Assembly (NCBI GenBank): GCA_041650295.1
Contig: JBAZLM010000005.1
Coordinates: 36,592 to 100,591, forward strand
Direction: 5' to 3'
Length of the DNA stretch: 64,000 nt
DNA from: Candidatus Omnitrophota bacterium
Lineage (GTDB): Bacteria; Omnitrophota; Gorgyraeia; Gygaellales; Profunditerraquicolaceae
In this document: positions 26,848 to 64,000 of the stretch, piece by piece
Position numbering within the stretch: the first letter of the stretch is position 1
How the letters are laid out: every line of letters begins with the position of its first letter
Program-made: the position numbers and the translations under genes
Notes under the pieces: model-generated
Databases searched by the model: none
What the model saw: the letters and a program-made list of their open reading frames with translations, nothing else
What the model was told of the DNA's origin: nothing

Positions 26848-26853
26848 ACTTTT

Positions 26854-42300: not shown

Positions 42301-45300
42301 GCATTCCTATCCGGCCACTATGCCAATAACCAATAAAGCAGATAAAGCTCCTACTCCTAGACAATTTAATAAAATTCTGCAGGCTCTTGGTGGAGAGCAA
42401 GCTTTAGCCAGCAAAGGAATAACTTTAAATATAAATAATGTGGTAATTAGCCCAGCATTAGAGGCTCCGGCGGAAGTCAGAGCAGGAGTATTATACGTTA
42501 ATCCTAATATCTTACGTGGTCCTCCGAAACAATTACGCGTAATCTTTGAAGGACATGAACTACTCCACTTAATTAATCCTACCGCTACTGAACAAAGAGT
42601 ACAGATATCTACAATTAATTACTTAGTAAACCATCATCGTCTTAATGCCCACATTAAATTTTTAAATAAGAATAAATTTGGTTTGAGAGCAGATATTACA
42701 TGGTTAACTACTTTAAATTTAAAATCTAAAGAAACAGCTGCTTCTAAAGATATTAAGTTTGAAAGGCTAGCCAAAGAAGATCTGCGATCTATGGCTAAAT
42801 ATTTAAGTCCTATTCTTGCTTTTGGTATCGTATTGTGTGTTGTGCCAGAAACTATTCTCGGGGCTTTAATGGCAATTCCTTTTATCGGTCTAGCAGTTTG
42901 GCGGTTAGTATTTCCTACTAATTGGCGCTTATGGACAGTAGCTACACTTAATTGCACAGATCGTCATTATCAAATTGCTTATAATAAACTCATTAAAACT
43001 AAAAATAAAAGAACAATTAAAGCATTAATTAAATGTTTAGAGGGAAAAAATTTAAATACTTGTTTAATTGCAATTAATATTCTTGGCAAAATTTATTCTG
43101 TAAAAACAAAAGCTAATAAATTTGATCAATTAGTAGTTTTATCTTTTATTGGCTTGGCACATAAGCTGTTAAATCCAAATGAAGAGATGTTTGCCTATTC
43201 TCGTTTTAGTATCTTTAAAACTATTATAAATACTTTATCTGTTTGGGTAGATACAGAAAAAACAATATTTGAAAAATCTAGTAATGAATATTTAGCAATT
43301 TATGAATTTTTTAGTAAATTCTTAGCTTCTAATGAGACAATACAAAATTCTGGATTTGAATTTTTAGCTTTACGGGAATTCTGTAAAAAATTTCCGGATC
43401 AGACGCCAGCTCATTGTGTTAGTAATTTAGTTAATTACGTTCTCGTTGGCAGTCCAACTGATCGTTCTGCTAATGGCGTCAGTACTGAAGAGGTGGAAAA
43501 GGCCATCGCCAAATTTGGTGGAATAGAAGAAATCTTAAAGCGAGAAATTACTAAATATACTGACTATATTAATATAATTTTTGGAATTAATATAGTAGAG
43601 CAAAAATTAAAGATTTCTTCAGAGATTATAAATTGTTTAATAGCTGCTTGTGGGGTACATTTTGCGCAAGCTCCTCCAGAATGGCATATCGGTGCTGCTA
43701 TTGGAATTTGTAAGCGTGAAGGTAAAGAAGAGCCAGTAATTATTATTACACAAGCAACTTCTGCCGATGCTATTGCTCATGAAATTTGCGCGATCTTAAT
43801 CCCTGGCTTAACACATGAAGAAAATTTAATAGTAAGTAAAAGAGTTAATTGTTCATTAGCTGCTTATGACTCTACCAATGCATTAGACAATTCTTTAAAA
43901 GGACGAGTAGAAAAAGTCTCAGGGGCTTTGGCTAGACTCTATAATCTGGATTCTCGTGAATTGCGCAATGTGCTTAATTTGGCTCCGGCTTGGGAGAAAG
44001 TTTTTAATGAAGAGATTCTTCCGGAGATTATTGATGGATATCTGCAGTATTTATCCTCTCCAAATGATAAAAAGCCTGCAGCGGTAGTTTTAATTACCGG
44101 AGAAGGCGGAATCGGTAAAACTACTGTAGCTTTGTCCTTTGATGAGATTGCGGAAGCGGCTTTAAAAAGAATTCGTGATGAAAAAAAATTATCAAGACAA
44201 TCAAATTTAGTAAGAGAGATTGCTTTCGATGATTATATTTTACAAAAAAACGATCGCCAAATTGATCCGTTAACTGGAGTTGCTACTGAAGATCCTTTTA
44301 AAAAATTCGAGTATGATCGTTTCTTAAAAGATATGCTAGCTTTGAGGCAAGGACAAACTATTTATAAGCCAATTTATGATTTCAATCTGCGTGGTCGACT
44401 TAAATTTGCTCTAAATCAAGAAAATCAGATAGTTTTAATGGTGGGTAATGAAGAAATTTTAGTTGGGGTTAATGTAGAAACCCAAGAGCCGTATTTCTCT
44501 TATCAAAATAAGCAGCAAGATTCATTAATGTTGGGTACTAATGAAATTAAAGTTGAGTTAAAAATATATCGTAATACTGAAAATAATATTGTTATTAATT
44601 TGCGAGACAGCGAGCATGTTTTTCGATTTGATGAAAAAGGTAAAGTTAATGTTAATGTTGGGGATGTTACACAAGTTTTAGAAAAAGGTAATTTAGTTGA
44701 AGCTTTGGAGATGATTGTTCCGCAGGGAAAAGTTTATATCGTTGAAGGTATTTTGGCTTTACAAAGCGATAAATTAAACGCTAAGTGTTTAACGGTTTAT
44801 ATTACAGGAGGTTTTGAGGCACGACTTTTACGTATGCTTAGCCGTTCGATGGGTGAAAGTGGAAGAAAGAACACGATTCAGGAGTTAGTTGAGCAACGTT
44901 TAAGATTAATAAAACTTGAAGAAATGCCTTACATTTGGCCAGTGAAAAAGAAGGCCCGTTGGGTAGTTACTAGTTTTAGTCGTTCAGAAGCTGTTTATAT
45001 GCTTTATATTCGTGGTCAACTAAATTGTCCTAATAAGAGAATAGTGCAAATTTTAAAAAGCTTAGGAGTTGATTGTCATGCACTAGTTGATGCATTGAAG
45101 AATATTTATCAGAATGAGGTGGCGGCTCGCTTAAGCGGTGGGCAGGGAATTCCTAGTGCTATTGAAGGAACAGCCTTTCATGTTTTTATGGATAATTGTG
45201 GTTTAGTTATAAAAGTGCCCCGCGCTGAATTTTTAAAGGAATTTGAAACAAATTTTATTAAGTTTTATAATACAGTGCTTAAAACTAGATTAGGTGGATT

Positions 45301-48300
45301 GATTGTTCCAGGAACAATTATTGATTTAAATAAGCTAGGTGTGGATATTAGCAGAGTAGTTGACGGTGATTTTTATAAATTTGAAAAGGTTCTTATTCAA
45401 AATAAAGTAGTAACGCTTGGTCAAAGATTAAATGATCTCTTAAAGGTTCAAGATATAGAGGGAGTAAAGAAATTAATTGATCAGTATTTTATTTTGCAGC
45501 AAGCGCTTTGGCGAAGGGGTGTTTGGGACAATAAGCCTAAGTTTATGGAGAAATATGGTTTTATTCCTTTAGATGGAGTAGAACAATTAGTGGTGGTTGG
45601 GGTTGATGGCTTAAAAGATAGGATAGAAGAATTTGATCCTACTTTATATATGAATAAAGATTTGCGTCCGCAAAATCTGCCGGCAGAATTAGAAGATTAT
45701 TATGATCTGAAGGTTAAGGAGATGATTTTTAGTAAAAATGACTTTTTAACTTATTTTGCCAGTGGATTGAAAGAGTGTCAAATGGCTCCAGATATTTCGG
45801 ATATTGAAATTGGTCGTAAACAAATGGATCATATTGTCACTACATTAAGGCAAGCGATGTTACAAAAATATCGTAAATTTTTTGGTTGTCTTAATTATAG
45901 TAGGGATAATCCGCTAATTTATTGGATAAAGTTTTATGTGGATACAGTTTATGCTAAAGGGGTAGCGCAGCAAGTTTTGTTAAATGCTTTTTATGAACAA
46001 GTTATTGAAGATCCCCAGATGTTAGATGAAGTCTCTAAAACTACTAGCAAACTTCAGGAAAAACTTAAAGAATTTAATCATAACGGTCTAGTCAGTGATT
46101 CCGGGCTTTTAGTGATGGCTGAAGAAATGCTTTATATTAAGAATGAATTTAATCATCAGAAAACGGATTCAACTGTTGGCGCTTTAGTGGGTGCTCAAAC
46201 TAAGACAACTGAAATTACCAATTATAGTGTTGAATTAGTATCTAAGCCAAAAATTACATCTGAAGAAATTGAAAAAATTCTATCAACTATGCGCGGTATG
46301 GCGGATGCGATGGCAGTTTTATGTACCGGTATTGAAGGATCTACTTATAAAGATGTTCCCGGTTTGCTTATTGATATTCAGAAAATGGAAGAACTTTTTG
46401 GGATTATTGCTGAGCGTGTAAAATCTACGGATAAAAATTTTGCTATTCATCCGGAGCTAGTTAATATTCGCGTGGCGGATGATGCTTTGGAAACTGTTCC
46501 TTCTTTAGAGGCATTAGAGACAGATCTCAAAGTTGGTATTTATCCGATTGCGGCTAATCCGATACATCTATCGCATATATTAGTTGGAATCGAAGCGATT
46601 GCTATTGGCAAGTGTGACGTGGTTTATTTTGATGTTCAATCCGGTGGGTATGTGCTTAAACCGATTTTAACCGCGACTGAAAAATATCGATACGAATTAA
46701 GTATGATACTTTTAGCTTTACTTGCTCCGTTCTTTGGTTTTGCGATAAATATTTCTAAAGACGGCGAAACGGATATTTTTAGAATTCAGAAGCTTAACCT
46801 TAATCAGAAAAGGGTTAAGTATGTTTATATTGTAGGTAGTGATCATTATCATCGGTGGGTAGAAAAAGACGCTTCGGATAATTTAATTCGGGGAACAGAA
46901 GAATATAGGCAGTATGTTTTAGTGCACAACGGCAAAGAGCCGACTCCGGATACAATTCAGAAGATGGAAGATAAATTAGTTGAATTTGGGGTGGATGCTT
47001 CGGAACTGGCCATATTATTTGTGGAGCGCATCGGTGAAGAAGCGCAAGAAACAATTGCTAGTTTATTAGATATCAGCATGCTTCCTCCGGTCGGGATGGC
47101 TTCTTCTACGGCGATTCGTAATGCTTTCAAGGCAATTGAAAGAATGACTAAGGATGAAGGCAATTTAAGCGCAGTGGAATTAGCAGAATTGCAAAAAGAT
47201 TTATTGAAAGGGTTAATTTATCTGCCGTATGTTAGCTACCAGTATATTATCGACCATTTGGATTATTTAGATATGCTGGTGCATCCTGAGGAATATGATG
47301 GGAGCAAGCCGGCTGATCGTGCGGCTAATGGCGCAAGTGCTAAAAGAGTTGATGCGGCTATTAATGATTTTGGTGGAATAAATGAAATTTTAAAGAATGA
47401 AATTAAGGATATTCTTTATGATAGAAATATTATGTTAGGTATTAATAAGGCGGCCTATAGCATGGATCAGGATCCTACGGCAATATATAGCGCGTTGATT
47501 GCGCGAGGAGTACATTTTGCTCAGGCACCTCCGAATTGGAAAATTGGCTCAGCCATTGGTATCTTAGATAAAGATGGAAAAATAGAATTGGTAGTTATCC
47601 TCTCTAAAGATGCAAATCCTGAAGAAGTTGCCCATGAAATCCGCGCTGTATTAATTTCAAGCTTAACTCACCAAGAAAATCAGTTATTAAGATCTAGTGA
47701 CAAAGTAGTTAAGAATATGTTTACTCATTCGATTGCTTTTCGTGGCTTGTTAACTCCCGAAGAAGACGCTGCCGTTGAATATTTTGATGACCCGATTAGC
47801 CCAGCTAAAAAAGGAGCAGTTCCCCTAAGCACACTTAAAGAGTATTCAGCAGCTGAAGAAATTATTTTTAACATCAAAGATATTGAATTAAAGAATCATG
47901 GTGCGCTGATACTTAATGAAGATTACCTGAAAAAATTTCATATTTATTTCTATCAGACTACTAGTAGTCCATCGCCTAATGCCAGCGTTGATTTTCAATA
48001 TATGAATATTTTTGTTTTTGCTAAATCTGCAGAAGAACTCAACGCACAGATTATTGCTAAAATATTAGTGCATGAATTAGTTGAATATGTTTTGGTTGAA
48101 CATTACTTAACAAATAATCAGTCAGCTAATTTTTCTGTAGCGCATCAGCAAGCCCTAGCAACAGTTAAGGATCTTGATGCCTTTATTTTAGCGAATAAGA
48201 AAACGAATAATTCTAGTGAAGCGCAATCACTATCTGATAAATTGATAGGTCAAAATAATGGCGCGGTAGTAAATACCTGTGGTAAAGATTTTCCTGTGAT

Positions 48301-51300
48301 TGCTAAATATTTTGCGGATGATCCGAGAAAAACATATTTGGCCTTGCGTAATTGGCAGAAAGAATTTAAGCAGCTTTTAGGGCAGGATAAAACATTAGAG
48401 CAGCTCACTACTTTTAAAGACGATCAGCATCCGGCCGGCACAGAGTACTTCTTATTAACTGATGAGCAAGGCAAATTTTTAAAGGACATTCAGGGTAATT
48501 ATATCATCCGTCCGCGCGATCTTTGCCATCAGGACGGGTCCTATCATCGCAGCGTTTTGATCGCCGCTATTGATTATCAGGGTAAATTTTTAAGGCAACA
48601 GCGTTCACAAACCAAGAGAATGTTTAAGCATTATTATGATCTTTCAGCCTGCGGGCATACTGCTTTGGATGCGGATTTGACAGGGGCGGCCCAAAGAGAG
48701 CTGGAAGAGGAGATATTCAATGATGAACATAAGATTGATTTAGCACGCTTAATTCAAATTACCCCGGATGCTTCGGTGCAGCATGATTTTATTTATACTG
48801 ATGAAAATGGTAGAAAATATATTGATAATGAGCGGTCGACGCTTTTTGTTTATTTTATGACCGAGGAAGAAAAGTTAAAGATTAAGTATCAGGTATCGGA
48901 GGTTGATCCTAAGGGCTGTAAATGGCTATGGTTTAAAAAAGAGGCGAATCGATATCGGGCTCATCCGGATAAATATGCAGCTGGCTTTAAAAGAGTGGTA
49001 GATAACCAGGATTTATATATAAAATTAACTAGTGTTGCAACGAGTGTTTATGGTGAAAATTATGCAGCAATTGCTGAAAAATTTGATGCCGAAACTTTTA
49101 AAGCTTTATATAAATTGACACATGAAGATCTCGACAATAAGGCCATGCAAGAAATTATGAATATAATTATAAGTAATTATCAGGAGCAAGGAATGATAGA
49201 CCGACTTTTTGGGATTGATTTATTAAATCCAGTAATGCAGCCGCTCGATTTTAATGATTTTAAGCGCCAGGAAGAAAACACTAGGTTTGTAGCTGACCGA
49301 GTGTTTCAGCTCACGGATTCTCATGATAAGTTATCAGTATTTAGTAGAGATAGATTACTTGATATGATTTGGGATGCCTTAAGGATAATTTATCTTTGGA
49401 TGCCCTTGTCTATATTTAAAAGATTTTATAACAATCAAGCGGTAGTGTCTGGACATGCTATCATGCATACTTTGGATGTTTTGGATGAGTGTTTTAGAAT
49501 TCAGAATGAACAGAAATATTTTTTATGGGAAGAAGATATCAAAAATTTAATTTTTGCCTCCTTGACTCATGATTTAAGTTATCTTATATATCAAGAAGGA
49601 CACTATCATTTTTCTTCAATTTGGGCAAGTGCTATTCTGGAGAAGAATAAAAAATATAATAAACATGCAGGAGACTGGACTTTTGGGACGCATAATAATA
49701 GATATGATGAAATTAAAGTGGGGGATATTATTAAGTTACATGATAAGGCAAAAGAGTACAATCTATACGATAATAATCAAGCAGCGGCGATTCTTCGGGA
49801 TGCTGATAAGTTAACTGCTGATTTAGATCCGCAGAGAATATATGATGCTAAGTGGTCAAATATATTGGAAAAGAACGGTTATACGCTAGAAAGGCCGGTA
49901 CCTTTTACAGAAATATTTTTTAATCCTCAAGAAGATCTTGATCATCGGGTAAAGGTGATAATCGATAATCTTCCGTATGATAGAAGTGATGCGGTTACAG
50001 ATCTTTTCCGTAAGATTATATACGATCGCAAGCAAGGTGGTGGATATTTGACCCGAGGGGGATCAGATATAATAAGCACTGCGGCTAATGATTTAAGTGT
50101 ATTGGTTGATTTTATTATAGATAAAGCGCAGGATTTGGAAGAAAAATATGGGTTTGGATTAGAAAGAATAGAACAAATTAAAGGAATTTTTTATGAACTT
50201 TATCATGTTATTTTTAATCAATGTTTTACTGAATCCCTGATTAATATAAATACAACTCGGGAAAATGAAATTTATTCACAAGAATTTAATTTGTTTAAAA
50301 GCAATCTAATCAACCGTATTTTAGAATTTAATCGAAGAATGCAAGAACCGTTGTTCTATGATAATGATGAAGATATTAATATGATTTTTTACGTATGGGA
50401 GTCTCAAGAGAGTCTTAACGCCGTTAAGTTTCTTGGGTCAATGGCAAAGGAAGGTTATTTAAACCGTGGCGAGATTGAATTAATTAAGGAGAATATAAAA
50501 ATTGCTTATGGACCAAACAAGCAAGTTCCTTCTGATTTTTTCCCGCTATACGATCAAATTTTTGATTTGTTTACTGTTGATTATGATACTGTTTTAGGTT
50601 ATTTTAACGATGTTGAACAAAATTTAGATACTACTTCAGGCCTTCGTAGTCAATTACAGGATTATTTAAATATTTCAGGGCAAGATAATAATCCTTTAGA
50701 CCGCTCAGCTAGAGGTAAGAGTAAAAGAAAAGTTAATGCGGCTATTAATGAATTTGGCGGGATAGAAAAAATACTGCAAGAGGGGACGTTGGATGTTGGC
50801 CTTTTCCAAAAGATTAATTCAGGTATTGATTGTACAGCAAAAAGTTTGGGAAAGACCGGTGAAGAGATTGAAAGATTATTGATGTCTAGGGGTGTGCATT
50901 TTGCGCAGGCGCCTCCGGGATGGGAAATCGGTCCAGCGATTGGTATTTTGAATCGCGATGAGAAAAAAGAGCTGGTAATTATTGTCCCCAAAGATGTGGA
51001 CATCGAAGATCTTGCCCATGAAATCCGCGCGGCAATTCTCCCCGGTTTAACCCATCAAGAAAATTTAAATATACAGGCAGTTAAAGAAATCCAACTCGAG
51101 CCGGTTTTTATTTCAGCAAATAAGCAAGCGCTTTCTTCTGAAGTAGCTTCAAATAAAGATTTTTTTGTACTGGTATTTAATTGCGGCAGCTCTTCAATTA
51201 AATACCAGTTTATTAATATGCAGGATGAATCAGTGGTGAAAAAAGGGACGATTAATATGATTGGCGAAAGCGATGGCCCGGCGAATTATTTAGAAGTAAT

Positions 51301-54300
51301 TAAGAATATTTTGGCGGATTTGTCTAGCTCCGGGTTGACTCCTTCGGCGATCGGTCATCGTGTAGTGCATGGTGGGGATAAATTTGAGGCATCAGTTTTA
51401 ATTAATGCCGATGTTAAGGCGGCGATTAAGGATTGTTTTAAGCTTGCCCCGCTGCATAATCCTGCGCATCTTATGGGCATCGAGGCTTGTGAAGAGCTGC
51501 TCCCGGGCATTCCGCAGGTTGCAGTTTTTGATACCGCTTTTCATAGCACTTTGCCTGCAGAAGCTTATTTATATGCTCTTCCTAAAGAGTATTACACTAA
51601 GTTTGGTATTAGGAAATATGGTTTTCATGGCACCAGCTATCGGTATGTCGCTAGTGCTGCGGCCAAACAATTAGGCATTCAGCCGGAAGATTTGAATGCG
51701 GTGATCTGCCATTTGGGTAATGGATGTTCAGTGGCAAAAATAAAAGCGGGAAAATCCGTGGATACGAGCATGGGGCTTACTCCTTTAGAGGGATTAGCCA
51801 TGGGCACGCGCTCCGGGGATATTGATGCCTCTGTGTTGGAGTTTATCGCTAATGAAACCGGAAAGAATATCGAAGAGCTGATGGCAATGTTAAATAAGGA
51901 TAGCGGATTATTAGGCATTTCCGGAGTAAGTAATAATATGATTAAATTACATGAAGCATTGGGAATAATTTCTCCGCGCCGGCCAAAGGAGATTAAAGAT
52001 GGAATTTCTAAAGTTGAGTTTTGGGCGGCGCAAGATGAAGATTTAATCAAAAAATATACTGCTTTAGCGCTTAAGGTTTTTACTTATCGCGTCGCCGGTT
52101 ATATCGGCAAGTATTATTGCGGCTTGCCGGCGGAGAGCGCTAAAATTATCTTTACGGCGGGCATTGGTGAGAATGCCGGTATGATTCGGCAAATGATTTT
52201 AGATCAGCTTCCGGGAATTGCGAATTTAGAGCAGCGGGTAATGGTGATTCCTACGGATGAGGAGCTGATGATTGCTCGAGATACGCAGGAGATTATTGAA
52301 AATATCCGGAATAATTCTATTTTGGCGCACAAGGGTTTTTTTGTTAAAGAGCAAGTTGGAGCACTGGTTAAAGTTTTAGGTTCTAGTACAACAAATGATA
52401 GTCAATTGGATGTAGATAATTTTATTATGAATATTTCGCAGTATGGCGCAATGACTACGGGTAAATGGTTAGGTCACCGGGAAAAAGTCGCGCAGGTAGT
52501 CAATGGTGAATTTTATAATGTTGTTCCGGTTACTATGCAGTTAGCACCTACTACAATTTGCCAATATAATTGTCCTACTTGTAGTTACGGTCGATCAAAA
52601 GAGGAGATCAGGAGTGCACTAAAATCAAAGACTGCCAATAAAAAAGATTTTTTTATGAGCATGGAAGATATGAAATTATATTTGGATCGCATTAAAGAAG
52701 CAGGAATAAAAGGTGTTATCTTCACTGGAGGTGGCGAACCGTTATTGAATCCTTACACGATAGATGGACTGGAGTATGCTAAGTCTTTAGGTTTACAGGT
52801 AGCCATGTTTACGGATGGCTACTTACTTACTCCGGAAACTGCTCAACGGATTATGAAAATTGGTTTAGTATTTTTACGCATTAGTTTTAACGCAGGAACG
52901 CCGGTTACCTATAAGCATTTTCACGGCACGACGGAAGATGCTTTTTATCGTGCAATTAAAAATATAGAGAATATAGCTGTGGCTAAAGAAATAACAAAGA
53001 GCCAAACCTCATTTGGGATTGGCGTTATCATTACTCCGTTAAATATTAAGGATCTTTTACATATTGCCAAGATTGTTAAGTCAATTGAAGAGCGCCATCC
53101 GGGAATGATTGAATTTATAGCTTATCGGCCGACCGTTCGTTATGAGCGTGGCTGTCAAAGAACCTTATTTACAAAGCAGGCGGTTGAATATATGCGCCAG
53201 ACTCCGGAATTAAGCCGTTATTATCAGGCGTATTATGATTTTATTTACAATGGAAAACAGTTCCCGGCTTCATTATTTCAAGAAGCGGTTACGATATTAG
53301 ATAACGAAGTTAAGCCATATTTGGAAAGTGGAGAATATCCGGTTAAGCTATTAACACCAAAAGGACGTATTGAAGGAGTTTACCAGACCGAAAAGCCTTT
53401 TTCGAAATGCTTAGCTTGTCCTTGGTGTAGTTTTATCGGACCGGAAGGCAATGTCTATCATTGTGTCGAGTTAGCGGTTGATTCTAGAACGATTTATGGC
53501 AACCTTAAAAAACAAACATTTAAAGAAATATGGGAAAGTCAGCAGAGAAAAGATGTCATTGAGCGGGTTAATGTTGAAGGGATGAAGTCTTTCTGTCCTC
53601 CAGTATGTTTATTATTTGAATATAATAAAATATTTGAAGATATTCAGCAGGGGTTAACTAATCCGGTGGTTCGGGAAAGATTGATTAAGGAAATTGAACG
53701 ATTTAGAGTTAGATTTGAACAGGAAGATTTGCCCATAGTCGGTAAAGGAGTAGATTTTATGTACCCGGCGAGGATGCCAGTAGCTAATGAGGAAGATCGG
53801 GAGCCGAGTAAGGCGGAATTAAGAATAATCCGCCGAGCCTTTGGCGGCAAGAGATATTATGAGAAAATTACTGGTAAAAAATTCAAGGATTTGGTAATTG
53901 TCCTTTATGCAGATTCAGATGTGGTGACCGAAGTTACTCCATCCGGAGCATTGTTAATTAACCCGAATCTTTTGCGCGGCCCGCCGAAACAGTTAAAAAT
54001 AATCTTCCAAAATCATGAATTATTTCATTTGCAGAATCCGAATATTGCTGAAGAGTTAGCCCACGCTTATACTATTCAATATTTATTAAAAAAAGGTTTA
54101 TTACAACGCCACCTATCCTTCTTAAAAAATAATAAAATTGGTTTAAAGCCGAATCGAGATTGGTTGTTAGAGTTAGAATTAGAAGATGTATTAATAAAAG
54201 TGATATCTTCTAAAGCTTCTCCTGCGCAGCAGGTAGCGATGATTGTTGAAAGAGCAGTTAATTTATTTAATCCAGATATAGTTTTTCAATGTATAGATGC

Positions 54301-57300
54301 CAGCCGTTGGATTAATTCTGGTTTGGATAAATTAGGTATCGTAAATTCACGCCGGGTAATTCATCTTAGCAAGGACATTACTCGAGAGCCGAAGATTGGC
54401 GAAAAAACCGAATATCACGATATTATTGAAGCGGTTTTTGAGGGCCAAATCTGGGTCATTGATACCCAAGCAAGACAATTTACGCAACAAACTAATAGTA
54501 GAATTCATGGTTTGTCTTTGGAGTTTGCTAATAAGTATATTTACAGCGCCAAAGATTATTATTCTATGCTTAAAGCGTTCTGGCTTGCTATGTCGGTTTT
54601 CCAAATTTCAGAAGCTTTGATTGATTCCACTGCTACCTCCCAAGGAATTGCGCCAGATTTAAAGAAAGCTTACTCAATTAAAAGTTCACGCATAAATTTT
54701 AAAAATTTATTAAGATTTTTAAGGGGAGCTGTTCAGCATAAAATAGGCCAAGGTATTATTTTGCATAACTTTGTGCCGTTTCCGATATTAGCTTTGGCAG
54801 TTTGGCCGGCAATAGCCGATTTTGTTGCAGCGCATCCGATATTAATGGGAGTAGGTATTTTATTAACTGGTGTTTGTTTAGCTTTGGTTTTATGGCGTAA
54901 ATTATTTCCGGTGAATTGGTATTCGCGAAGATTGAAAAGTTCGTTGGCTGAAGTTCGTGTTGAGGCAGCTATTGCTTTAGGAAAAACTAAAAATCATAAA
55001 GCCGTTAAGCCACTATTGGTGACGATCTATGATCATCATCTTTTAGTGCGCGACGCGGCGGTTGGCGCTTTGGGTCAGCTTAAAGATAGTCAAGCCATTG
55101 AGCCATTAATTGAATTATTTAGGATTTCAGATGATTATCGTAAAACGCTTATCATTAAAGCTCTTAGTGAAATAAGCGGTGAAAAAGTGTCAGTGGATAG
55201 CCTTGGCGCGGTGGTGGGTAGTAAGTTCGGTGAGCAGGAAGCAATTAAGATGAGTCAGGCGCTGCCTCTAGAACCAGTCGCTTCACCGCTTAGATTTGGC
55301 ACCAGTGGCTGGCGCAGTAGTAGATATACAGATTTTGTCATGCCCAATGTTCGACGTATATTAGAAGGAATTGCTTTGTATCACGATAGGGTGCTTAAGA
55401 AAGGAACATTTTTAATTGGTTATGATCCTAGAGCCGAAAATCAAAGTTTTGCTAAAGAAGCAGCGAGTATCTTTGCGGCACATGGTATTAAAACGCAAAT
55501 TATAATTAGTGATCCAACTCCTACTCCGGTTTTAGGATACTTAGCTGGTTCTAATGATGAGATTGCTGGAATTATCATTTTTTCCGCTAGCCATAACCCT
55601 GCCGAATATAATGGTATAAAATTTTATCAATATCACGGCGGTTCGGCGGATGTTGAAACTACGGATGTTATTTCAGAATTAGCCAATGCCGCCATAACCT
55701 ATAGGATAATGGATTATCAACAAGCTAAAGTAGAAGGCTTAATTACTGAAATTACTTTAGGTCAAGTAATTCAAAAATATGTTTTTGAATATATTATTCC
55801 TAGAGTTAAAGAAATCGGCGCTTGGAATGATATCGTAAATTATATCAAAAATAATCCGGAATTTGTGTTGGTGGTTGATCCGATGCAGGGTGCGGCGGTA
55901 GAATACTTAAAAGCAATTTATTTGCAGCTAGCCAAAGAAGCCGGTCGGGACTTCTTTATATTAATTCATACCAATAATCATGATCCAGAATTTTTAGAAG
56001 TAAATAGCGCGCCTAATCCGACATTGCCAGAAAATATAACTGAACTAATTAGTAAGGTATCCTTCGGCAAACAGGTTTTTGGTTTAGCGGTAGACGGGGA
56101 TGCGGATAGATTTAGAGTGATTGATTTTGGTGGCAAAGTTATTGAGGCTTCAGATGTAATTGCTATTTTAGCGCATTTTTTAAATACAGAGATTGGCTTG
56201 ACTGGTGTGATTGGAAAAAGTGTAGCCACATCTAATTTTGTCAATGCTATTGCTAAATATTTAAAATTAGATTTAGTGGAAGTTGGGGTAGGGTTTAAGA
56301 ATTTTGTGAATCAAGTAGTTAAAAATAAGGTTAATTTCTTAGTGGGCGGAGAAGAATCGGCCCATGTTTGTTTAGGGCTGTTGAATCAGTCTTGGGACGA
56401 TGGCATTGCTATAGGGCTATTGTGTTTTTGGGTAGTTGCGCGTACCGGCAAAACTATTTCTGGGTATAAAACTAGAATTGAAAAAGAAGTGGGGAAACAT
56501 TTTGACTCTGAAGTAATTACAATTTATGGCCAAGACGATTCGATTAAGGATGTAATTACTAATTTAATTCAAAAGACTGCAGAGGAACTAGAATCCGGAG
56601 TTCCGGCTTTAAAGACGACAATTGTAAAACAGGTCAGCAAGTTACAAAATAAGAAGGTAAAGGAATTAATTACTTTAGATGGCTTAAAAATTGTTTTTGC
56701 ATCCGACGATTGGATCCTTTTGCGACCTTCGGGAACTGAGCCAGCAGTTAGGCTTTATGTAGAAGTCACAGATTCATCTAAATTTGCTAGCTTGGTTAAG
56801 CTAGGTAGGGCTTTATTGGGAGTAGAAGAAGAGATTAGTCAAAATTTAAACCCGATTGCTTACCGCGGTTCTTTAACAGATGAAGAAAATTTGATTGCCC
56901 AAAGGTTAGCTAAAACAGCCGATCCTCTGACAGAAGGAGCAAGAGTGGCAGGGAGCTTAAGAGGGTATAAATCTGCAACTAGCATAATTTGCAATAATAT
57001 TAAAAATATTCATCTAGATGCTTATGGTAAGTTAGAATTAGAAGCTATTTTGAATAAATTTTCAATTTATTTTTATCAAACTGCTAATCGTTCGCCACCT
57101 AATGCGGTAACCGATGCTTTCAACCATCGTATTATCATTTTTGCTAATACAGAAGAGGAGCTCACCCATAAACTTTTGGTAAAAATTTTAATTCATGAAC
57201 TTGTCGAATATGAAATTCTCAATGACCCTCAGGTAACCACCGCTATTGCCCATCATCAAGCAGAGTTAGTTATAGATAGCTTAGATGATGTGGCGATTTT

Positions 57301-60300
57301 ATTCAACGATGAAGAATCGATATATTTTTCTAAAACAATCATTGATGCATTAAATAAGCTATTTTTAGAGCAAGATTTCTTAGATTATTATAATTTAATT
57401 TATCCGCAGAAGTTAGCTATCACTGGAGTAGATCATCAGCCCGGAAGAGATTTAGTAGATATTTTAATTGATACTACTTCTGGACAGCGTGAATTCAAGG
57501 TAGCTTTATATAAATCTGGCTATTCATTAGATAATAACATAGAAAATAGATATTTAAGGATAGCTAGTAGAATTGTCGGATTATATCAAAATTTTCTTTT
57601 GCAAAGAATAGATAATGAATTAGATGCTGTTGGGATTAAAACCGCAGATGTAATTGAACAAATTGAAGATTCATTTCGTCAAACTGTTTACGATCAAGAA
57701 TGGGAATCTTTAAGTGAGGGCTCAGATGCCAAAGTATATAAAAATCAGGATTCTTCATTAGTAATTAAGGCAGTAAAAGAAAGAAGTCTTAGTTATGATT
57801 ATTCTTATAATGTTAATCCTTTTATAAATTATCAATTAGCAAAACAATATTTAGGGCATTTAGCTGTACGTTTTTTAATCTTGGATAATTTGAAAATTAG
57901 ACTCCCAGATAAAGATGGGAATATTGAAGAAGTAATTATTGAAAGAGCGGTTGTGCAGAAATTTGTTAAAGTATTTTTTAAATTAGGAGTACATGACTAT
58001 ACAAAATATGAACATTGTACTGGTATTTTAGCCGATTTGATTAAAGAAGGAAAAATTGAAACGGCAAAATTTATAATTGGTGAATTTTTAAAAGGCGTGC
58101 GAGCAATTTTAGCCCGTGGATTATTTGATTGGGATATCAAAGCAGAGAATTATGGATATGATCCTTCGGTGGGTAAAGTAGCAACATTGGATATGGGTAA
58201 ATTATTGTTATATGATCAGGTTGTGCTTACTTCAGCAAAGGTATTTGTAAGAAATTTAAAAATTACCAGCGATGATATCTATGAATGGACTAAATTTGTT
58301 ATTAATCAAGAAGCGGCTCTTGAATTAAAGAATTATTTTGATACTTCAGTAAAAAAGGTTTTTTGGTTGGCCTATGATGAGGTGGGATTAGATATTACTA
58401 AAGATCTGAATGTTTTAGATAAAGAACATATGTTAGAAGACAGTGTGCGATATGATTTATGTTATGACAATTCAATAGGAAAGCCGGTTAATTATGCCGG
58501 TACTAGAGAAACTAGAGAAAGGGCTGCGCGGTTAATTTCTAAATATTTAAAAGACAATAATATAGATATTGATGCGGTGGAGATGGTTTTTGCTAAATTT
58601 GGTTTTGCCCAGCTTTGCCAAGAAACAGAAGTTTCTAAAATGTTATCCGATGGTTTTGTTTCTGATAATATTTTCTGTCTTGCTTTAGATGAAAATAGCA
58701 ATCCTTATTGCGGTATTAAAGCCAGAGAGCCCAAGAATTTTCCTACTGTTCAATATGTATTATATAACGATGAATATAAAGGCCAGCTTACTACTCGTCA
58801 AGACTCTGTTAATATTAAAAAAGCAGTAGTTAAAACATTGCTTCGATATTATGACTATCGTCAAGAAGTATATGATACTTTAGCAAAAAAATTTGCATTG
58901 GATAAAACTTTAAAAATTTGGAATTCTATGAACTTGAGGGAAGAATTTGAAAAAATAAAATACAATAATTTAAACGTTGATCAGAAGGATACCTTGAATT
59001 TATTATTAGGTATTTGTAAAGATGGTGATTTAGCTGGAAGGATGATCTTGGCTTTCGATGAGTTGGCAGAGACCAGAAGATATCCTTTTGGCATAGATTT
59101 GAATAAGATGTATTTGATTAAGTCCGAGAATGATTTTGCCGTTGAGGTCTTTGGGATGGGTACCTTTACTCGGAAAACCCAGGAAAAAGAGGTGCTCTTG
59201 CATATGCATCAAAATCTTAGCTTTTCTTACGAGGATATTTTGGAGGCGATTGTAGAAAGTAAAGATGAGATGGGTGCAACTATTTTTATTAGTAAGGTTT
59301 ATTTTCAGTGTAGTGCAATGGATAGCGAGCTTAAAGAAGTATTAATGAAAAAATTAAACCAGCTTCGTTCCTCTGATTATACTGGCGTATTTGATAGTGT
59401 TGTAAATGGTTTACCTAAGAATCATTTGCTTTGCTCAGCGAACAATTTAACTGATCAAAATAATGCCTATCCTTTACCGGTGCCGGAAGCGGTTCGCTCT
59501 GATATAAATAAAACATTTATTAATTCCACGGTAAATAATTTAGAAATACAGACTTCTCATATTCCGGTGAATGCTTATTTTGAGTCGCTGCAAAATATTT
59601 TAAGCGTTTTTAAAAAATGTTTTGGTCGCGCTCCCCCGAGATTAGGTCTCTGGCAATTGCTTGTTTCCACGGATTTAAGCTTAACGCGAGGCAAGGTTGC
59701 CGCCTGCGATATTAAATCCCGAACTGTTTATCTGCACACTTATTTTTTTCAACTTTCCCAAGCTAAACAATTAGAAATTCTTTATCATGAGCTCATTAGC
59801 CATATGCAAAAGGGTATCGCCGATGAAAATATTGCTCTGCGTGATACGAATGCTTTCTTTTGGCTACAACCCAATGCTCCCCAACTAGTCGGGAAAACGT
59901 TGATGACTTTATCGATGGAAGGTAATATTCCGGAATTTGCCGGATATCCGGATGCGCAGAATGCTTGTACTCGGGGTGGATTAGGTGCATATTTTGGCGA
60001 TAAGTTGGAAGGGTTGTTTGCGATTGGCTTGACTGCCTGGGGCGTTGAGCCGGCTTATGCTTATACTACTAGAGATGGAAAAGATATCGCCGTGGATTAT
60101 GCGCCATTATTTAATCAGGGCGTGATTAGTAAAGTTTTAGATAAAAATGGTGCTCCTTTAGTGTTACAAGTTTATGCTTGGGATGATCAATGCAAAAGTT
60201 CACTTTATAAGGATAAATCCATCGCGGTGGAAGTTTGGCTGGTTAACCGCGGAGGCACGCCGCTATATCTTTTATACTCACAGGAAGTATTTAATAATCT

Positions 60301-63300: not shown

Positions 63301-64000
63301 TAATTATGTGTCGAACATTCCCTGGTTAAGCGGAGTGGATGCGGATTATATGCAAGGTCTTTTTGGCAAAGAAATAGAGTTAATCGTGGATAAAACTAAG
63401 CTGCCGATAATTAGAGTGGTTAGCGCGCAGGAAGATAATCGTTGGGTAAATTGTACGCTCAAAGCCCCTAACACCGATGACTTAATGCATCGATTTAATT
63501 GCGACATTACCTACATTGAGCAGGTAATTAAAAATGCTGAAGAGACCGCGGTGCCGGAAAGTTTCATTAATACGATTACCGATCAAGGATTCGACGATTT
63601 AATTAAAGCTATTCTGGGCCAACGCTCTCCGCATATTCGCTTGTTTGTGGTAAAAGCGCCTGCAATTGCTAATTTATTCGGTATTCCTCGTTACCAGAAT
63701 GCAGTTTTAGCACGCGACACGATTCCAGTTTATACTGTACCGGATAATGCTGGCAATCTTTGTTGTTACGTTACGCAGAATTTTTATGATTCGCTTTTGG
63801 TTGACCCGTGGTTATTTTGTTTTGCTCTAGATCATGAATTTTATGAAAAAGGTACGGTTCCTCACCGTGTGCATAAACAGGCCTGGCAAGATCGGGGAAG
63901 CTTAGAATGCTTTGCTGATCCGGCGACCGGAATTAATAAGTTCATAAAGCTTTATATTGATCGCTTATTTGCTGAAGGCGATATTGAAGGGTTAGACCGA
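33332..64000 (+). CDS. giant multidomain secreted/membrane protein, 5' complete and 3' end beyond the window (>=10,223 codons, >=30.7 kb)
   Basis: ATG at 33332 is preceded by in-frame TGA and by AAAGGAG 8 nt upstream. My hand translation of every codon to 64000 found no in-frame stop. Frame consistency (codon starts = 2 mod 3) was verified at embedded motifs: acetate kinase 51185, radical SAM 52559, PGM 55298, phosphorylase 61334. It is absent from the ORF track because no stop lies within the window. Signal peptide [29 protein letters not shown]. Confidence 0.85.
   Translation, partial: [10223 protein letters not shown]
49400..49850 (+). other. HD-domain phosphohydrolase-like region embedded in the giant ORF
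   Basis: [12 protein letters not shown] ... [13 protein letters not shown] ... HYHFSS ... [12 protein letters not shown]. The H...HD...H...D pattern defines the HD superfamily. Confidence 0.6.
51160..52310 (+). other. acetate/propionate kinase (AckA)-like domain embedded in the giant ORF
   Basis: [77 protein letters not shown], ...[12 protein letters not shown]. All acetate kinase signature segments are in order. An ~45-aa insertion precedes the C-terminal subdomain. Confidence 0.8.
52500..53650 (+). other. radical SAM domain with C-terminal SPASM-like cysteine cluster, embedded in the giant ORF
   Basis: CQYNCPTC (CX3CX2C), [11 protein letters not shown] glycine-rich SAM motif. Downstream CLACPWCSF...HCVEL...CPPVC resembles SPASM/twitch auxiliary-cluster cysteines. 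Confidence 0.7.
55280..56830 (+). other. alpha-D-phosphohexomutase (phosphoglucomutase/phosphomannomutase) domain embedded in the giant ORF
   Basis: RFGTSGWRS, active-site loop [13 protein letters not shown], metal loop AVDGDADRF, sugar-binding GGEESAH, phosphate-binding [15 protein letters not shown]. All four PGM/PMM loops are in canonical order. Confidence 0.8.
59880..61560 (+). other. GT35 alpha-glucan (glycogen/maltodextrin) phosphorylase-like domain embedded in the giant ORF
   Basis: [11 protein letters not shown] (cf. YSGGLGVLAGD), PLYLL, [20 protein letters not shown] (cf. HLNEGHAAF), [11 protein letters not shown] (cf. TTHTPVPAG), [28 protein letters not shown] (cf. EASGTSGMKAALNG...LDGWW). 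Confidence 0.7.

What the first reader, a model, noticed from the sequence alone, without database searches (positions are those of the whole stretch)
52500..53650. Radical SAM/SPASM module within the giant protein
A CX3CX2C motif (CQYNCPTC) followed by GGGEPLLNP, and later multiple conserved cysteines (CLACPWCSF, HCVEL, CPPVC), indicate a radical-SAM core with an auxiliary cluster domain. This is the type used for peptide/protein modification. Oxygen-sensitive Fe-S chemistry inside a protein with a signal peptide raises a question: is it cytoplasm-facing, given the topology implied by the TM blocks, or vestigial?
Basis: partly seen in the sequence, partly recalled or inferred. Interest (0 to 1): 0.65.

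Follow-up and report, generated by a model that had tools for sequence, protein, structure and literature searches.

The report
Radical SAM enzyme inside giant protein
A complete, apparently working radical-SAM enzyme with one extra iron-sulfur cluster is fused in frame into a protein of more than 10,000 residues in an anaerobic Omnitrophota bacterium; it most likely sits on the cytoplasmic side and acts on a small molecule, not a peptide, and such domains in these giant proteins have already been catalogued.

Summary
Window 52409-53761 encodes a full-length radical SAM enzyme. Pfam gives PF04055 67 bits and PF13186 33 bits, both above cut-off, and the AlphaFold2 model has pLDDT 94. The enzyme lies in frame inside an ORF that starts at 33332 and is still open at 64000 (at least 10,223 aa), between an acetate-kinase module and an HExxH domain followed by a transmembrane hairpin.

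Across relatives, only four C-terminal cysteines are conserved (five in the giant-embedded copies). That fits a one-cluster Twitch domain, not a two-cluster SPASM domain. No RiPP recognition element was found. The best solved-structure matches are DesII and BlsE, which act on nucleoside-linked sugars. Relatives sit in nucleotide-sugar operons or are fused to TIR, SIR2, CHAT or PNP effector domains.

The module is not vestigial. All seven other embedded copies aligned here (30-55% identity, neighbours largely different) keep every catalytic motif.

Cytoplasmic facing is the likely topology. It rests on the positive-inside rule at both bounding hairpins and on the cofactor needs of the neighbouring modules.

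The host is an Omnitrophota MAG that carries Wood-Ljungdahl genes. A 2026 preprint already lists PF04055 in 90 long Omnitrophota proteins, so this is a new member of a known kind. The substrate is unknown.

The parts
33332..64000 (+). Giant ORF: ATG at 33332, no stop before the window end, at least 10,223 aa. It carries all the modules listed below.
   Evidence: open frame and translation. Searches give the modules: NagB-like, uridine kinase, NaMN adenylyltransferase-like, NUDIX, acetate kinase, radical SAM, HEAT, PGM, alpha-glucan phosphorylase-like.
33332..33418 (+). N-terminal signal-peptide-like segment (MKTKNSKAKR + hydrophobic ILSLVLCFGLILQQMGFAQ).
   Evidence: No dedicated signal-peptide predictor was available.
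42800..42916 (+). Transmembrane hairpin C (aa 3157-3195), the N-terminal boundary of the 3,950-aa stretch that holds the rSAM module. That stretch has no predicted TM helix; one hydrophobic helix at aa 4454-4475, inside the nucleotidyltransferase-like module, is read as buried.
   Evidence: The 40 residues after it hold 9 K/R and 1 D/E.
51167..52294 (+). Acetate kinase module, directly upstream. About 40 residues (aa 6322-6359) separate it from the rSAM module.
   Evidence: PF00871, 382 bits, E 2.7e-114.
52409..53761 (+). Complete radical SAM / Twitch enzyme module (giant aa 6360-6810).
   Evidence: This is the span shared with stand-alone homologues (P0001, 467 aa, 46-47% identity) and with copies in other giant ORFs. 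AlphaFold2 model pLDDT 94.3, pTM 0.91.
52547..52981 (+). Radical_SAM (PF04055) core match.
   Evidence: 67 bits, residues 67-211 of window:52349-53821.
52559..52582 (+). CX3CX2C triad (C6410, C6414, C6417), the ligands of the SAM-binding [4Fe-4S] cluster.
   Evidence: Conserved in all 15 sequences.
52757..52783 (+). GGGEPLLNP, the 'GGE' SAM-binding motif.
   Evidence: G89, E90 and P91 are invariant in alignment A1.
53156..53266 (+). Insertion of about 37 aa specific to this subfamily (QRTLFTKQAVEYMRQTPELSRYYQAYYDFIYNGKQFP), between the core barrel and the auxiliary domain.
   Evidence: present in P0001-P0007 and P0012, absent from more distant relatives. Helical in the model.
53408..53608 (+). 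Twitch-type (truncated SPASM) auxiliary-cluster domain. Conserved cysteines: C6693 (53408-53410), C6711 (53462-53464), C6755 (53594-53596), C6759 (53606-53608). C6696 is conserved only in the giant-embedded copies and P0006.
   Evidence: PF13186, 33.2 bits, profile positions 3-52 of 67. (conservation).
53762..54163 (+). R1 domain with invariant HExxH (HELFH at 54014-54028). A second copy is at aa 2993-3128.
   Evidence: internal repeat. R1 also follows the rSAM in L008, L025, P0055 and P0069. (invariant H, E, H); weak fold match to the minigluzincins selecase and abylysin. No Pfam hit.
54767..54901 (+). Transmembrane hairpin D (aa 7146-7190), the C-terminal boundary of the rSAM-bearing stretch.
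   Evidence: The 40 residues before it hold 8 K/R and 1 D/E; the 40 after it hold 8 K/R.
54932..55165 (+). HEAT repeats.
   Evidence: PF13646, 48.8 bits.
55292..56794 (+). Phosphoglucomutase/phosphomannomutase module (domains I-IV).

Best explanation
The segment is a complete, catalytically competent radical SAM enzyme of the Twitch type, with one SAM-binding [4Fe-4S] cluster and one auxiliary [4Fe-4S] cluster. It has been fused in frame, as one module among many, into a membrane-anchored multi-enzyme giant protein of an anaerobic Omnitrophota bacterium.

Shown here:
- The motifs, the fold, and equivalence in length and content to a free-standing enzyme.
- Recurrence of the module, with all motifs conserved, in other giant proteins.

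Inferred:
1. The module lies on the cytoplasmic face. It sits in a 3,950-residue stretch with no predicted TM helix, tethered by two helical hairpins. There it can receive Fe-S clusters, SAM and low-potential electrons.
2. It cleaves SAM reductively to a 5'-deoxyadenosyl radical and abstracts a hydrogen from a small molecule. The most likely substrate is a nucleoside-linked sugar or a sugar phosphate supplied by neighbouring modules. The auxiliary cluster would act as electron acceptor or substrate anchor, as in BtrN or MoaA.
3. It does not mature a peptide.
For: Motifs and profiles.

Fold: AlphaFold2 pLDDT 94.3.

One auxiliary cluster: only C6693, C6711, C6755 and C6759 are conserved, plus C6696 in the embedded copies and P0006.

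Full-length equivalence to stand-alone proteins of 447-467 aa.

Not vestigial and not an assembly artefact:
- Seven other copies were aligned: five in giant ORFs open at both locus ends (L007, L008, L009, L017, L025; more than 3,280 to more than 7,091 aa) and two in contig-end fragments (L010, L013). They are 30-55% identical to the window module, have largely different neighbours, and all keep the motifs.
- The five best of 1.84 billion representative proteins are all 1,508-3,469 aa long.

Small-molecule, sugar or nucleotide leaning:
- The best PDB sequence hits are BlsE and DesII, and the best fold hits are DesII (E 5e-14) and BlsE.
- Stand-alone relatives lie next to UDPGP, NAD-epimerase/dehydratase, aldo-keto reductase, DegT aminotransferase and GT2 genes.
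- In other giant proteins the module is preceded by UDPGP (L025) or NAGPA (L008, L009).
- In the window it is followed by PGM and an alpha-glucan phosphorylase-like module.
- A preprint places PF04055 in a 'sugar metabolism' co-occurrence module of long Omnitrophota proteins (10.64898/2026.06.07.730766).

Cytoplasmic side:
- K/R counts of 9/40 and 8/40 on the flanks that face the segment, against 4.6 expected; the hairpin loops carry no K/R.
- The same segment carries ATP- or nucleotide-dependent modules: uridine kinase, adenylyltransferase-like, NUDIX and acetate kinase.

Anaerobic host: CdhD and RACo are encoded in the window. LepA is 100% identical to that of an Omnitrophota MAG.
Against: - No curated family is matched. 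Every NCBIfam equivalog is far below its cut-off (best 76 bits against 380; DesII 43 against 450; BlsE 34.5 against 400).
- The resemblance to DesII and BlsE is distant (TM-score about 0.5-0.57, 14-17% identity). It is partly a consequence of which enzymes have solved structures. Sactipeptide and RiPP maturases follow closely (E 1e-10).
- The closest stand-alone relative (P0001) and the sister clade are in TIR/SIR2/CHAT/PNP contexts, not sugar operons.
- Topology rests on a hand-made hydropathy scan and the positive-inside rule. The N-terminal signal-like peptide and the uncertain helix count in aa 1650-2340 leave the global topology unresolved. Published predictors disagree on such proteins.
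- Cluster binding and activity are untested.
Confidence: 0.55

Rival explanations
1. Nucleotide-directed 'conflict' enzyme. The module belongs to an rSAM clade used in biological conflict. It would convert a nucleotide or NAD-related metabolite into a signal or poison, with chemistry like viperin or MoaA, and the giant protein would deploy it during predation or defence.
For: - The nearest stand-alone relative, P0001 (47% identity), directly follows two ThsB-like TIR genes.
- The sister clade (bootstrap 94% for the clade itself, 68% for the sister relation) consists of 850-1,306 aa proteins. They have interchangeable N-terminal TIR, SIR2, CHAT or PNP_UDP_1 domains, a conserved unannotated middle region, and this rSAM at the C-terminus.
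- A conserved cassette of rSAM, a PNP-like protein and a second rSAM occurs in a Holophagales MAG and three DPANN archaea.
- pVip models hit the core at 38-55 bits.
- Uridine kinase, adenylyltransferase-like, NUDIX and HD-like modules lie in the same cytoplasmic segment. A cytidylate-kinase-like module precedes the rSAM in L009.
Against: - The pVip hits cover only the generic core (profile positions 7-155 of 257). The NCBIfam viperin model scores 39 bits against a cut-off of 180.
- Viperins have no auxiliary-cluster domain (my own knowledge).
- The A/B sister relation has only moderate support.
- No TIR, SIR2 or CHAT module was found in the Pfam-scanned parts of the window's giant protein or of the others.
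Confidence: 0.2
2. Peptide- or protein-modifying SPASM maturase. The module would install a cross-link or other modification on a peptide, or on the giant protein itself.
For: - The PF13186 hit is above threshold.
- Foldseek also matches CteB, SkfB, SuiB and PqqE at E 1e-10 to 1e-8.
- Weak NCBIfam hits to sactipeptide and other RiPP maturases.
- A cis substrate within 10,000 residues cannot be excluded.
Against: - Only 4-5 conserved auxiliary cysteines, against the 7-8 of SPASM (PMC9477430).
- No PqqD/RRE domain, and too few residues before the core to hold one.
- No small precursor-like gene was noted beside the stand-alone relatives inspected. ORFs under 100 aa were not searched systematically.
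- All RiPP equivalogs are at least ten times below their cut-offs.
Confidence: 0.1
3. Exported module. The signal peptide takes the polypeptide across the membrane, so the rSAM module sits in the periplasm, on the surface or in prey. There it would be inactive, or would act only after delivery.
For: - The N-terminus looks like a Sec signal peptide.
- Published predictions place many enzyme domains of Omnitrophota giant proteins outside the cell. The 2026 preprint classes SP+TM giants as secreted and anchored.
Against: - The positive-inside rule at both bounding hairpins points to the cytoplasm.
- Fe-S insertion, SAM, ATP and reduced ferredoxin or flavodoxin are cytoplasmic, and Sec exports unfolded chains (established knowledge).
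- All motifs are conserved, which implies activity.
- The authors of the giant-gene preprint themselves call the TM predictions unreliable.
Confidence: 0.07
4. Vestigial or decaying domain kept only as a spacer.
For: The giant proteins evolve fast, and their domains score far below family cut-offs.
Against: - The triad, the GGE motif and the four auxiliary cysteines are intact in all seven other embedded copies aligned, at 30-55% identity.
- The fold prediction is highly confident.
Confidence: 0.03

Closest known systems
Twitch-domain radical SAM enzymes (BtrN, MoaA)
   Same: CX3CX2C core followed by a truncated SPASM domain. Three or four conserved cysteines for one auxiliary [4Fe-4S] cluster. 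Small-molecule substrates (a carbocyclic aminosugar for BtrN, GTP for MoaA). PMC9012708, PMC9477430.
   Different: - Only distant fold similarity (BtrN E 8e-8, TMq 0.38; MoaA E 3e-8).
- About 470 aa, with a 37-aa insertion and a C-terminal helical extension.
- Embedded in a protein of more than 10,000 aa.
- Substrate unknown.
DesII (TDP-4-amino-4,6-dideoxyglucose deaminase) and BlsE (cytosylglucuronate decarboxylase)
   Same: Best solved-structure matches by both sequence and fold. Similar length. Some relatives lie beside DegT aminotransferase, epimerase or UDPGP genes, which recalls the DesI/DesII arrangement (my own knowledge).
   Different: - 14-17% identity, TM-score 0.5-0.57.
- The NCBIfam models for both are missed by a factor of ten.
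- Whether their C-terminal domains bind a cluster was not checked here.
Multi-enzyme 'metabolic' giant proteins of Omnitrophota (West-Roberts et al. 2023, 10.1101/2023.11.21.568195; 2026 preprint 10.64898/2026.06.07.730766)
   Same: - The host is an Omnitrophota MAG.
- Signal-like N-terminus plus transmembrane helices.
- Divergent PGM, starch-synthase-like (PF08323), NUDIX, kinase and HEAT modules.
- PF04055 is reported in 90 such proteins, in a sugar-metabolism co-occurrence module.
   Different: Those surveys stop at the Pfam label. They do not give the cluster count, the subfamily, the relation to stand-alone enzymes or the flanking HExxH domain.
SPASM-domain RiPP maturases (AlbA, SkfB, CteB, SuiB, PqqE, anSME)
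   Same: The Pfam SPASM model hits. Shared overall fold.
   Different: Those that carry the full SPASM domain have two auxiliary clusters with 7-8 cysteines, and many have an RRE. Here there are 4-5 cysteines and no RRE.
Prokaryotic viperins (pVip)
   Same: Partial match of the rSAM core. Relatives of the module occur in immunity-like contexts.
   Different: Viperins have no auxiliary-cluster domain (my own knowledge). NF038283 scores 39 bits against a cut-off of 180.

Membership tests
Radical SAM superfamily (PF04055) | CX3CX2C motif that ligates the SAM-binding [4Fe-4S] cluster | tested here: met
   C6410, C6414, C6417. Conserved in all aligned relatives.
Radical SAM superfamily (PF04055) | Profile score above Pfam's gathering threshold, and a GGE SAM-binding motif | tested here: met
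   67 bits against 29.5. GGGEP is invariant.
Radical SAM superfamily (PF04055) | Partial (beta/alpha)6 TIM-barrel fold | tested here: met
   AlphaFold2 pLDDT 94.3 with alternating strands and helices. 85 PDB matches at E<=1e-3; all 50 listed are radical SAM enzymes, among them one DUF512 entry read as radical SAM from my own knowledge.
Radical SAM superfamily (PF04055) | Reductive cleavage of SAM to the 5'-deoxyadenosyl radical | not testable with these tools
   Needs anaerobic biochemistry.
SPASM domain (two auxiliary clusters) | PF13186 profile above threshold | tested here: met
   33.2 bits against 21.5, but only profile positions 3-52 of 67 are matched.
SPASM domain (two auxiliary clusters) | Seven or eight conserved cysteines that bind two extra [4Fe-4S] clusters (PMC9477430) | tested here: not met
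   Only C6693, C6711, C6755 and C6759 are conserved family-wide. C6696 is kept only in the embedded copies and P0006. C6699 and C6608 are variable.
Twitch domain (one auxiliary cluster) | Truncated SPASM domain with three or four conserved cysteines, C-terminal to the barrel (PMC9477430, PMC9012708) | tested here: met
   Four conserved cysteines spaced C-x17-C-x43-C-x3-C. The spacing is close to that of BtrN as I recall it (not verified here).
Twitch domain (one auxiliary cluster) | Actual binding of a second [4Fe-4S] cluster | not testable with these tools
Needs Fe/S analysis, EPR or Moessbauer spectroscopy.
RiPP-maturase radical SAM enzymes | RiPP recognition element (PqqD-like) or an adjacent precursor peptide | tested here: not met
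   No PqqD or other Pfam hit in aa 6340-6830 at E<=0.1. Only about 50 residues lie between the module's start (aa 6360) and the CX3CX2C motif. No precursor-like gene was noted in the neighbourhoods inspected; ORFs under 100 aa were not searched systematically.
DesII / BlsE sugar-nucleoside radical SAM enzymes | Score above the NCBIfam equivalog cut-off (TIGR04426, TIGR04466) | tested here: not met
   43 bits against 450, and 34.5 bits against 400. They are nevertheless the top PDB matches.
Viperin / pVip | Score above the NF038283 cut-off; full-length match to pVip models | tested here: not met
   39 bits against 180. The PADLOC pVip match covers only profile positions 7-155 of 257.
Omnitrophota multi-enzyme giant proteins | Omnitrophota host; ORF above 10,000 aa; transmembrane helices or signal peptide; many distinct divergent enzyme Pfams, including PGM, PF08323 and PF04055 | tested here: met
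   Definition.

The most novel reading that the evidence does not exclude
The module belongs to an undescribed conflict-associated radical SAM clade. Its sister group carries swappable TIR, SIR2, CHAT or PNP effector domains. In Omnitrophota giant proteins the module would make a modified nucleotide or nucleotide-sugar used against prey or phage. The HExxH minigluzincin-like domains that follow it (R1, and the related HE-motif linkers R2 and R3) would cut the giant chain, so the protein would work as a bacterial polyprotein that releases, or activates, individual enzymes at the membrane.
Probability: 0.12. Interest if true: 0.8.

Novelty: new member of a known kind. Interest (0 to 1): 0.45.

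Why it matters
Giant Omnitrophota proteins are among the longest predicted polypeptides, and nobody knows how they work. An Fe-S, SAM-dependent and oxygen-sensitive enzyme inside one gives three things:

- It is a built-in topology marker. Wherever this module sits must be the cytoplasm of an anaerobe, which constrains models that place most enzyme modules outside the cell.
- It shows that whole free-standing enzymes are captured intact and shuffled between giant proteins.
- The module is small enough (about 470 aa, confidently folded) to express on its own. That makes it one of the few experimentally tractable entry points into these proteins.

The side observation that its nearest relatives are fused to immune-type effector domains could define a new rSAM-containing conflict system.

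Tried and rejected
- NCBIfam scan for an equivalog: 45 weak hits, none near its cut-off, so no family name can be given.
- PADLOC scans of the module, its closest relatives and their neighbours: only generic pVip-core hits, plus hits to the TIR, SIR2, PNP and CHAT domains. The conserved middle region and the rSAM itself are not in PADLOC.
- Pfam at E<=1 on nine linker segments (R1, R2, R3 and others): nothing.
- BLAST of the window's acetate kinase, PGM and phosphorylase modules against the 86 related loci: no hits. The window's neighbours are therefore not conserved partners of the rSAM.
- A first self-BLAST of the giant protein returned nothing useful. It was redone with 200-aa chunks.
- A first bootstrap tree timed out. 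It was redone with a numpy distance routine.
- Literature searches found no paper describing TIR/SIR2/CHAT-rSAM fusions, and no open-access DesII structure paper.
- Considered and rejected: a glycyl-radical-enzyme activase. One JGI record (P0007) carries that name, but activases lack the Twitch domain (my own knowledge) and no glycyl radical enzyme module was seen.
- Considered and rejected: a gene on the opposite strand. Only short ORFs of 123 aa or fewer lie opposite this part of the giant ORF.
- The full length and C-terminus of the giant ORF could not be obtained, because it runs off the window.
Full report
**1. The observation**

The window has one reading frame (+2) that opens with an ATG at 33332 and stays open to the last base, 10,223 codons in all. 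The DNA is about 36% G+C, where stop codons are frequent in any unselected frame, so this is a real gene that runs off the window.

- CQYNCPTC at aa 6410-6417 (nt 52559-52582).
- GGGEPLLNP at aa 6476-6484.
- CLACPWCSF at aa 6693-6701.
- HCVEL, with C6711.
- CPPVC at aa 6755-6759.

Pfam gives Radical_SAM PF04055 at 67 bits (cut-off 29.5, E 3e-18) and SPASM PF13186 at 33.2 bits (cut-off 21.5).

It spans aa 6360-6810 (nt 52409-53761), the stretch that aligns end to end with stand-alone proteins and with copies in other giant ORFs.

**2. What surrounds it**

The module directly follows a strongly scoring acetate-kinase module (382 bits), after about 40 linking residues (aa 6322-6359). After it come:
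- a 134-residue domain with an HExxH motif (called R1 here);
- a two-helix hydrophobic hairpin (aa 7146-7190);
- HEAT repeats;
- a four-domain phosphoglucomutase;
- an alpha-glucan-phosphorylase / starch-synthase-like module.

Upstream in the same polypeptide lie NagB-like, uridine-kinase, NaMN-adenylyltransferase-like and NUDIX modules and, by eye in the translation, an HD-like stretch. All score far below the family cut-offs.

The rest of the window encodes LepA, GatA/GatB, an S41 protease, and CdhD plus RACo of the Wood-Ljungdahl pathway. LepA is 100% identical to that of a 'Candidatus Omnitrophota bacterium' MAG on a 153-kb contig. The host is therefore an anaerobic member of Omnitrophota, the phylum known for giant genes.

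**3. What kind of radical SAM enzyme it is**

Family assignment:
- No NCBIfam equivalog comes near its cut-off. The best is the tungsten-cofactor maturase model at 76 bits against 380.
- A word-indexed search of 5.8 billion proteins found 45 relatives. The best are stand-alone proteins of 447-467 aa at 38-46% identity.

Cysteine conservation:
- In the 17-sequence alignment and a second alignment that adds the giant-embedded copies, the CX3CX2C triad and GGGEP are conserved.
- Exactly four C-terminal cysteines are conserved: C6693, C6711, C6755 and C6759, spaced C-x17-C-x43-C-x3-C.
- C6696 is kept only in the embedded copies and P0006. It is Ser or His in the other stand-alone proteins aligned.
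- C6699 and C6608 are not conserved.
- By the published definitions, SPASM domains have seven or eight conserved cysteines for two clusters, and Twitch domains have three or four for one (PMC9477430; PMC9012708). This is a Twitch-type domain.
- In keeping with this, the SPASM profile is matched only over positions 3-52 of 67.

Against a RiPP role: no PqqD/RRE domain is detected, and only about 50 residues lie between the module's start and the first cluster cysteine.

Structure:
- AlphaFold2 on the alignment gives a very confident model (pLDDT 94.3, pTM 0.91).
- Foldseek against the PDB ranks DesII first (E 5e-14, TM 0.56), then BlsE, then CteB, SkfB, SuiB, PqqE, MoaA and BtrN.
- phmmer against PDB sequences also returns only BlsE and DesII.
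- Both act on nucleoside-linked sugars. The similarity is remote, however, and the ranking partly reflects which enzymes have been crystallised.

**4. Is it alive, and is the fusion real?**

A scan of one genome per GTDB species found 141 relatives. The window module's closest relatives there are L008 (55%), L007 (50%) and L017 (48%), with L025 (36%) and L009 (34%) further off. All five lie in ORFs that run off both ends of the fetched DNA, at more than 3,280 to more than 7,091 aa. They come from Omnitrophota MAGs or MAGs labelled Planctomycetales.

Their other modules differ: NAGPA, UDPGP, APH, a SAM methyltransferase and a cytidylate-kinase-like module. The rSAM is therefore a mobile, self-contained module.

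An exhaustive HMMER search of 1.84 billion representatives gives 118 hits at E<=1e-30. The five best are all 1,508-3,469 aa long, and 24 of the best 150 are at least 700 aa.

Every embedded copy aligned keeps the triad, the GGE motif and the four auxiliary cysteines. A vestigial domain or an assembly chimera is thus very unlikely.

**5. Which side of the membrane?**

No dedicated predictor was available, so I used a Kyte-Doolittle scan and the positive-inside rule.
- The module lies in a 3,950-residue stretch (aa 3196-7145) with no predicted TM helix, bounded by two hairpins. One hydrophobic helix inside the nucleotidyltransferase-like module is read as buried.
- The 40 residues that face this stretch hold 9 and 8 Lys+Arg (4.6 expected) and 1 acidic residue each.
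- The outer flanks of both hairpins are also basic, and the loops within the hairpins carry no Lys or Arg.
- The simplest reading is two re-entrant anchors with both ends, and everything between them, in the cytoplasm.

This agrees with the ATP-, nucleotide- and SAM-dependence of the modules in the stretch. It also agrees with the established fact that Fe-S clusters are inserted in the cytoplasm.

The global topology stays open. The N-terminus looks like a Sec signal peptide, and the helix count in aa 1650-2340 is ambiguous. The literature also warns that TM predictions for these proteins are unreliable.

**6. What it probably does**

*Shown:* a complete Twitch-type rSAM enzyme, conserved, fused in frame and recurrent in giant proteins.

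*Inferred:* it makes a 5'-deoxyadenosyl radical and attacks a small molecule.

Evidence leaning to a sugar or nucleotide-sugar substrate:
- The DesII and BlsE matches.
- Stand-alone relatives flanked by two NAD-epimerase/dehydratases, an aldo-keto reductase and UDPGP (Saganbacteria).
- Relatives flanked by GT2 and a DegT aminotransferase (L011), by UDPGP-like, GT2 and epimerase genes (L073), and by epimerases immediately downstream (L044, L072).
- UDPGP or NAGPA modules before the rSAM in other giant proteins.
- PGM and a glucan-phosphorylase-like module after it here.
- The reported co-occurrence of PF04055 with PGM, PF08323, GT1 and ROK in long Omnitrophota proteins.

Evidence pulling the other way:
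- The closest stand-alone relative follows two ThsB-like TIR genes.
- In an NJ tree with 200 bootstraps, the window's clade (78%) is sister (68%) to a well-supported clade (94%) of 850-1,306 aa proteins. These combine a swappable N-terminal TIR, SIR2, CHAT or PNP domain, a conserved unannotated middle region of about 450 aa, and this rSAM.
- That architecture is typical of conflict systems, so a nucleotide-directed role is a serious rival.

I therefore commit to 'cytoplasmic, small-molecule, Twitch-type rSAM'. I rank a nucleotide-linked sugar or sugar phosphate as the most likely substrate class, with modest confidence.

**7. The domain behind it**

R1 follows the rSAM in the window, L008, L025, P0055 and P0069, and weakly in P0051. 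It has invariant H-E-x-x-H. It recurs once more in the window protein (aa 2993-3128), again just before a transmembrane hairpin.

A moderate AlphaFold2 model (pLDDT 72) finds selecase and abylysin as its best PDB matches. These are minimal gluzincin metallopeptidases. The statistics are weak: E 0.04-0.6, target-normalised TM-score 0.59-0.65.

Two other repeated linkers, R2 (three copies) and R3 (two copies), carry HE-containing helices. None of the three has a Pfam match.

This hints that the giant chain may be cut at these domains, or that they are membrane-proximal metalloprotease-like units. It is a lead, not a result.

**8. Comparison with what is known, and novelty**

The superfamily and the Twitch architecture are textbook. 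The occurrence of radical SAM domains in Omnitrophota giant proteins is already recorded at the Pfam level: 90 proteins, placed in a sugar-metabolism co-occurrence module and judged compatible with a cytoplasmic face (10.64898/2026.06.07.730766). The 2023 giant-gene preprint does not mention radical SAM.

What this analysis adds:
- There is one auxiliary cluster rather than two.
- It is not a RiPP maturase.
- It is a whole captured enzyme.
- Its subfamily has no characterised member.
- Its relatives split between nucleotide-sugar operons and immunity-like fusions.
- It is habitually followed by an HExxH domain.

I rate it a new member of a known kind, of moderate interest. Its main value is as an experimentally tractable handle and a topology marker for giant proteins.

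Noticed in passing
P0056, P0057, P0059, P0061, P0063, P0066, P0074 (proteins); L002:327-2881: A clade of 850-1,306 aa proteins combines a swappable N-terminal TIR, SIR2, CHAT or PNP_UDP_1 domain, a conserved middle region of about 450 aa (no Pfam or PADLOC hit, no Walker A motif) and a C-terminal rSAM/Twitch domain of this family. The closest stand-alone relative, P0001, follows two ThsB-like TIR genes. This looks like an uncatalogued conflict or immunity system.
   Followed up: partly
window 42308-42715 and 53762-54163 (R1); 43403-43831, 47297-47689 and 50630-51067 (R2); 47657-48178 and 56786-57286 (R3): Three families of internal repeats punctuate the giant protein between enzyme modules. 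Each has an HE-containing helix: R1 has strict HExxH, R2 has AHEIxAxL..LTHxEN, R3 has HELVEY. None has a Pfam match. R1 models weakly as a minigluzincin-like metallopeptidase and both copies precede a transmembrane hairpin. They may be processing proteases.
   Followed up: partly
window 10971-17264 (+): A second, smaller multi-enzyme fusion ORF of 2,097 aa combines glutamate-dehydrogenase domains with a UDPGP (UTP-glucose-1-phosphate uridylyltransferase) domain.
   Followed up: no
window 25516-28776 (+): CdhD (CO dehydrogenase / acetyl-CoA synthase delta subunit) and RACo (reductive activator of the corrinoid protein) mark the host as an anaerobe with Wood-Ljungdahl components.
   Followed up: no
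L005/L018 (Holophagales), L020, L021, L023 (DPANN archaea): A conserved cassette of an rSAM of this family, a PNP_UDP_1-like protein of about 770 aa and a second 620-aa rSAM is shared between a bacterium and three DPANN archaea (25-31% identity for the partner genes). This suggests a horizontally moving system of unknown function.
   Followed up: partly
L001, L006, L058: A conserved three-gene arrangement accompanies the P0002-P0005 group of stand-alone relatives: a GerE/LuxR-type regulator, the rSAM, and a 765-aa protein with no Pfam or PADLOC hit.
   Followed up: partly
window 44001-64000: Strong, sustained positive GC skew (0.15-0.32) runs along the distal two thirds of the giant ORF, far above the rest of the window. 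It presumably reflects a coding-strand purine bias of this gene.
   Followed up: no
L004:1-4133: In the Saganbacteria/WOR-1 contig that carries the stand-alone relative P0008, a 4,847-aa gene with a SecA_DEAD domain lies about 4 kb upstream. It resembles the SecA-bearing giant genes described for Omnitrophota.
   Followed up: no
window 34661-34684 (giant aa 444-451): A P-loop motif (GPPGGGKS) lies in the N-terminal 1,650 residues, which follow the signal-like peptide and have no Pfam or NCBIfam hit. An NTPase there would sit oddly with export of this region.
   Followed up: no
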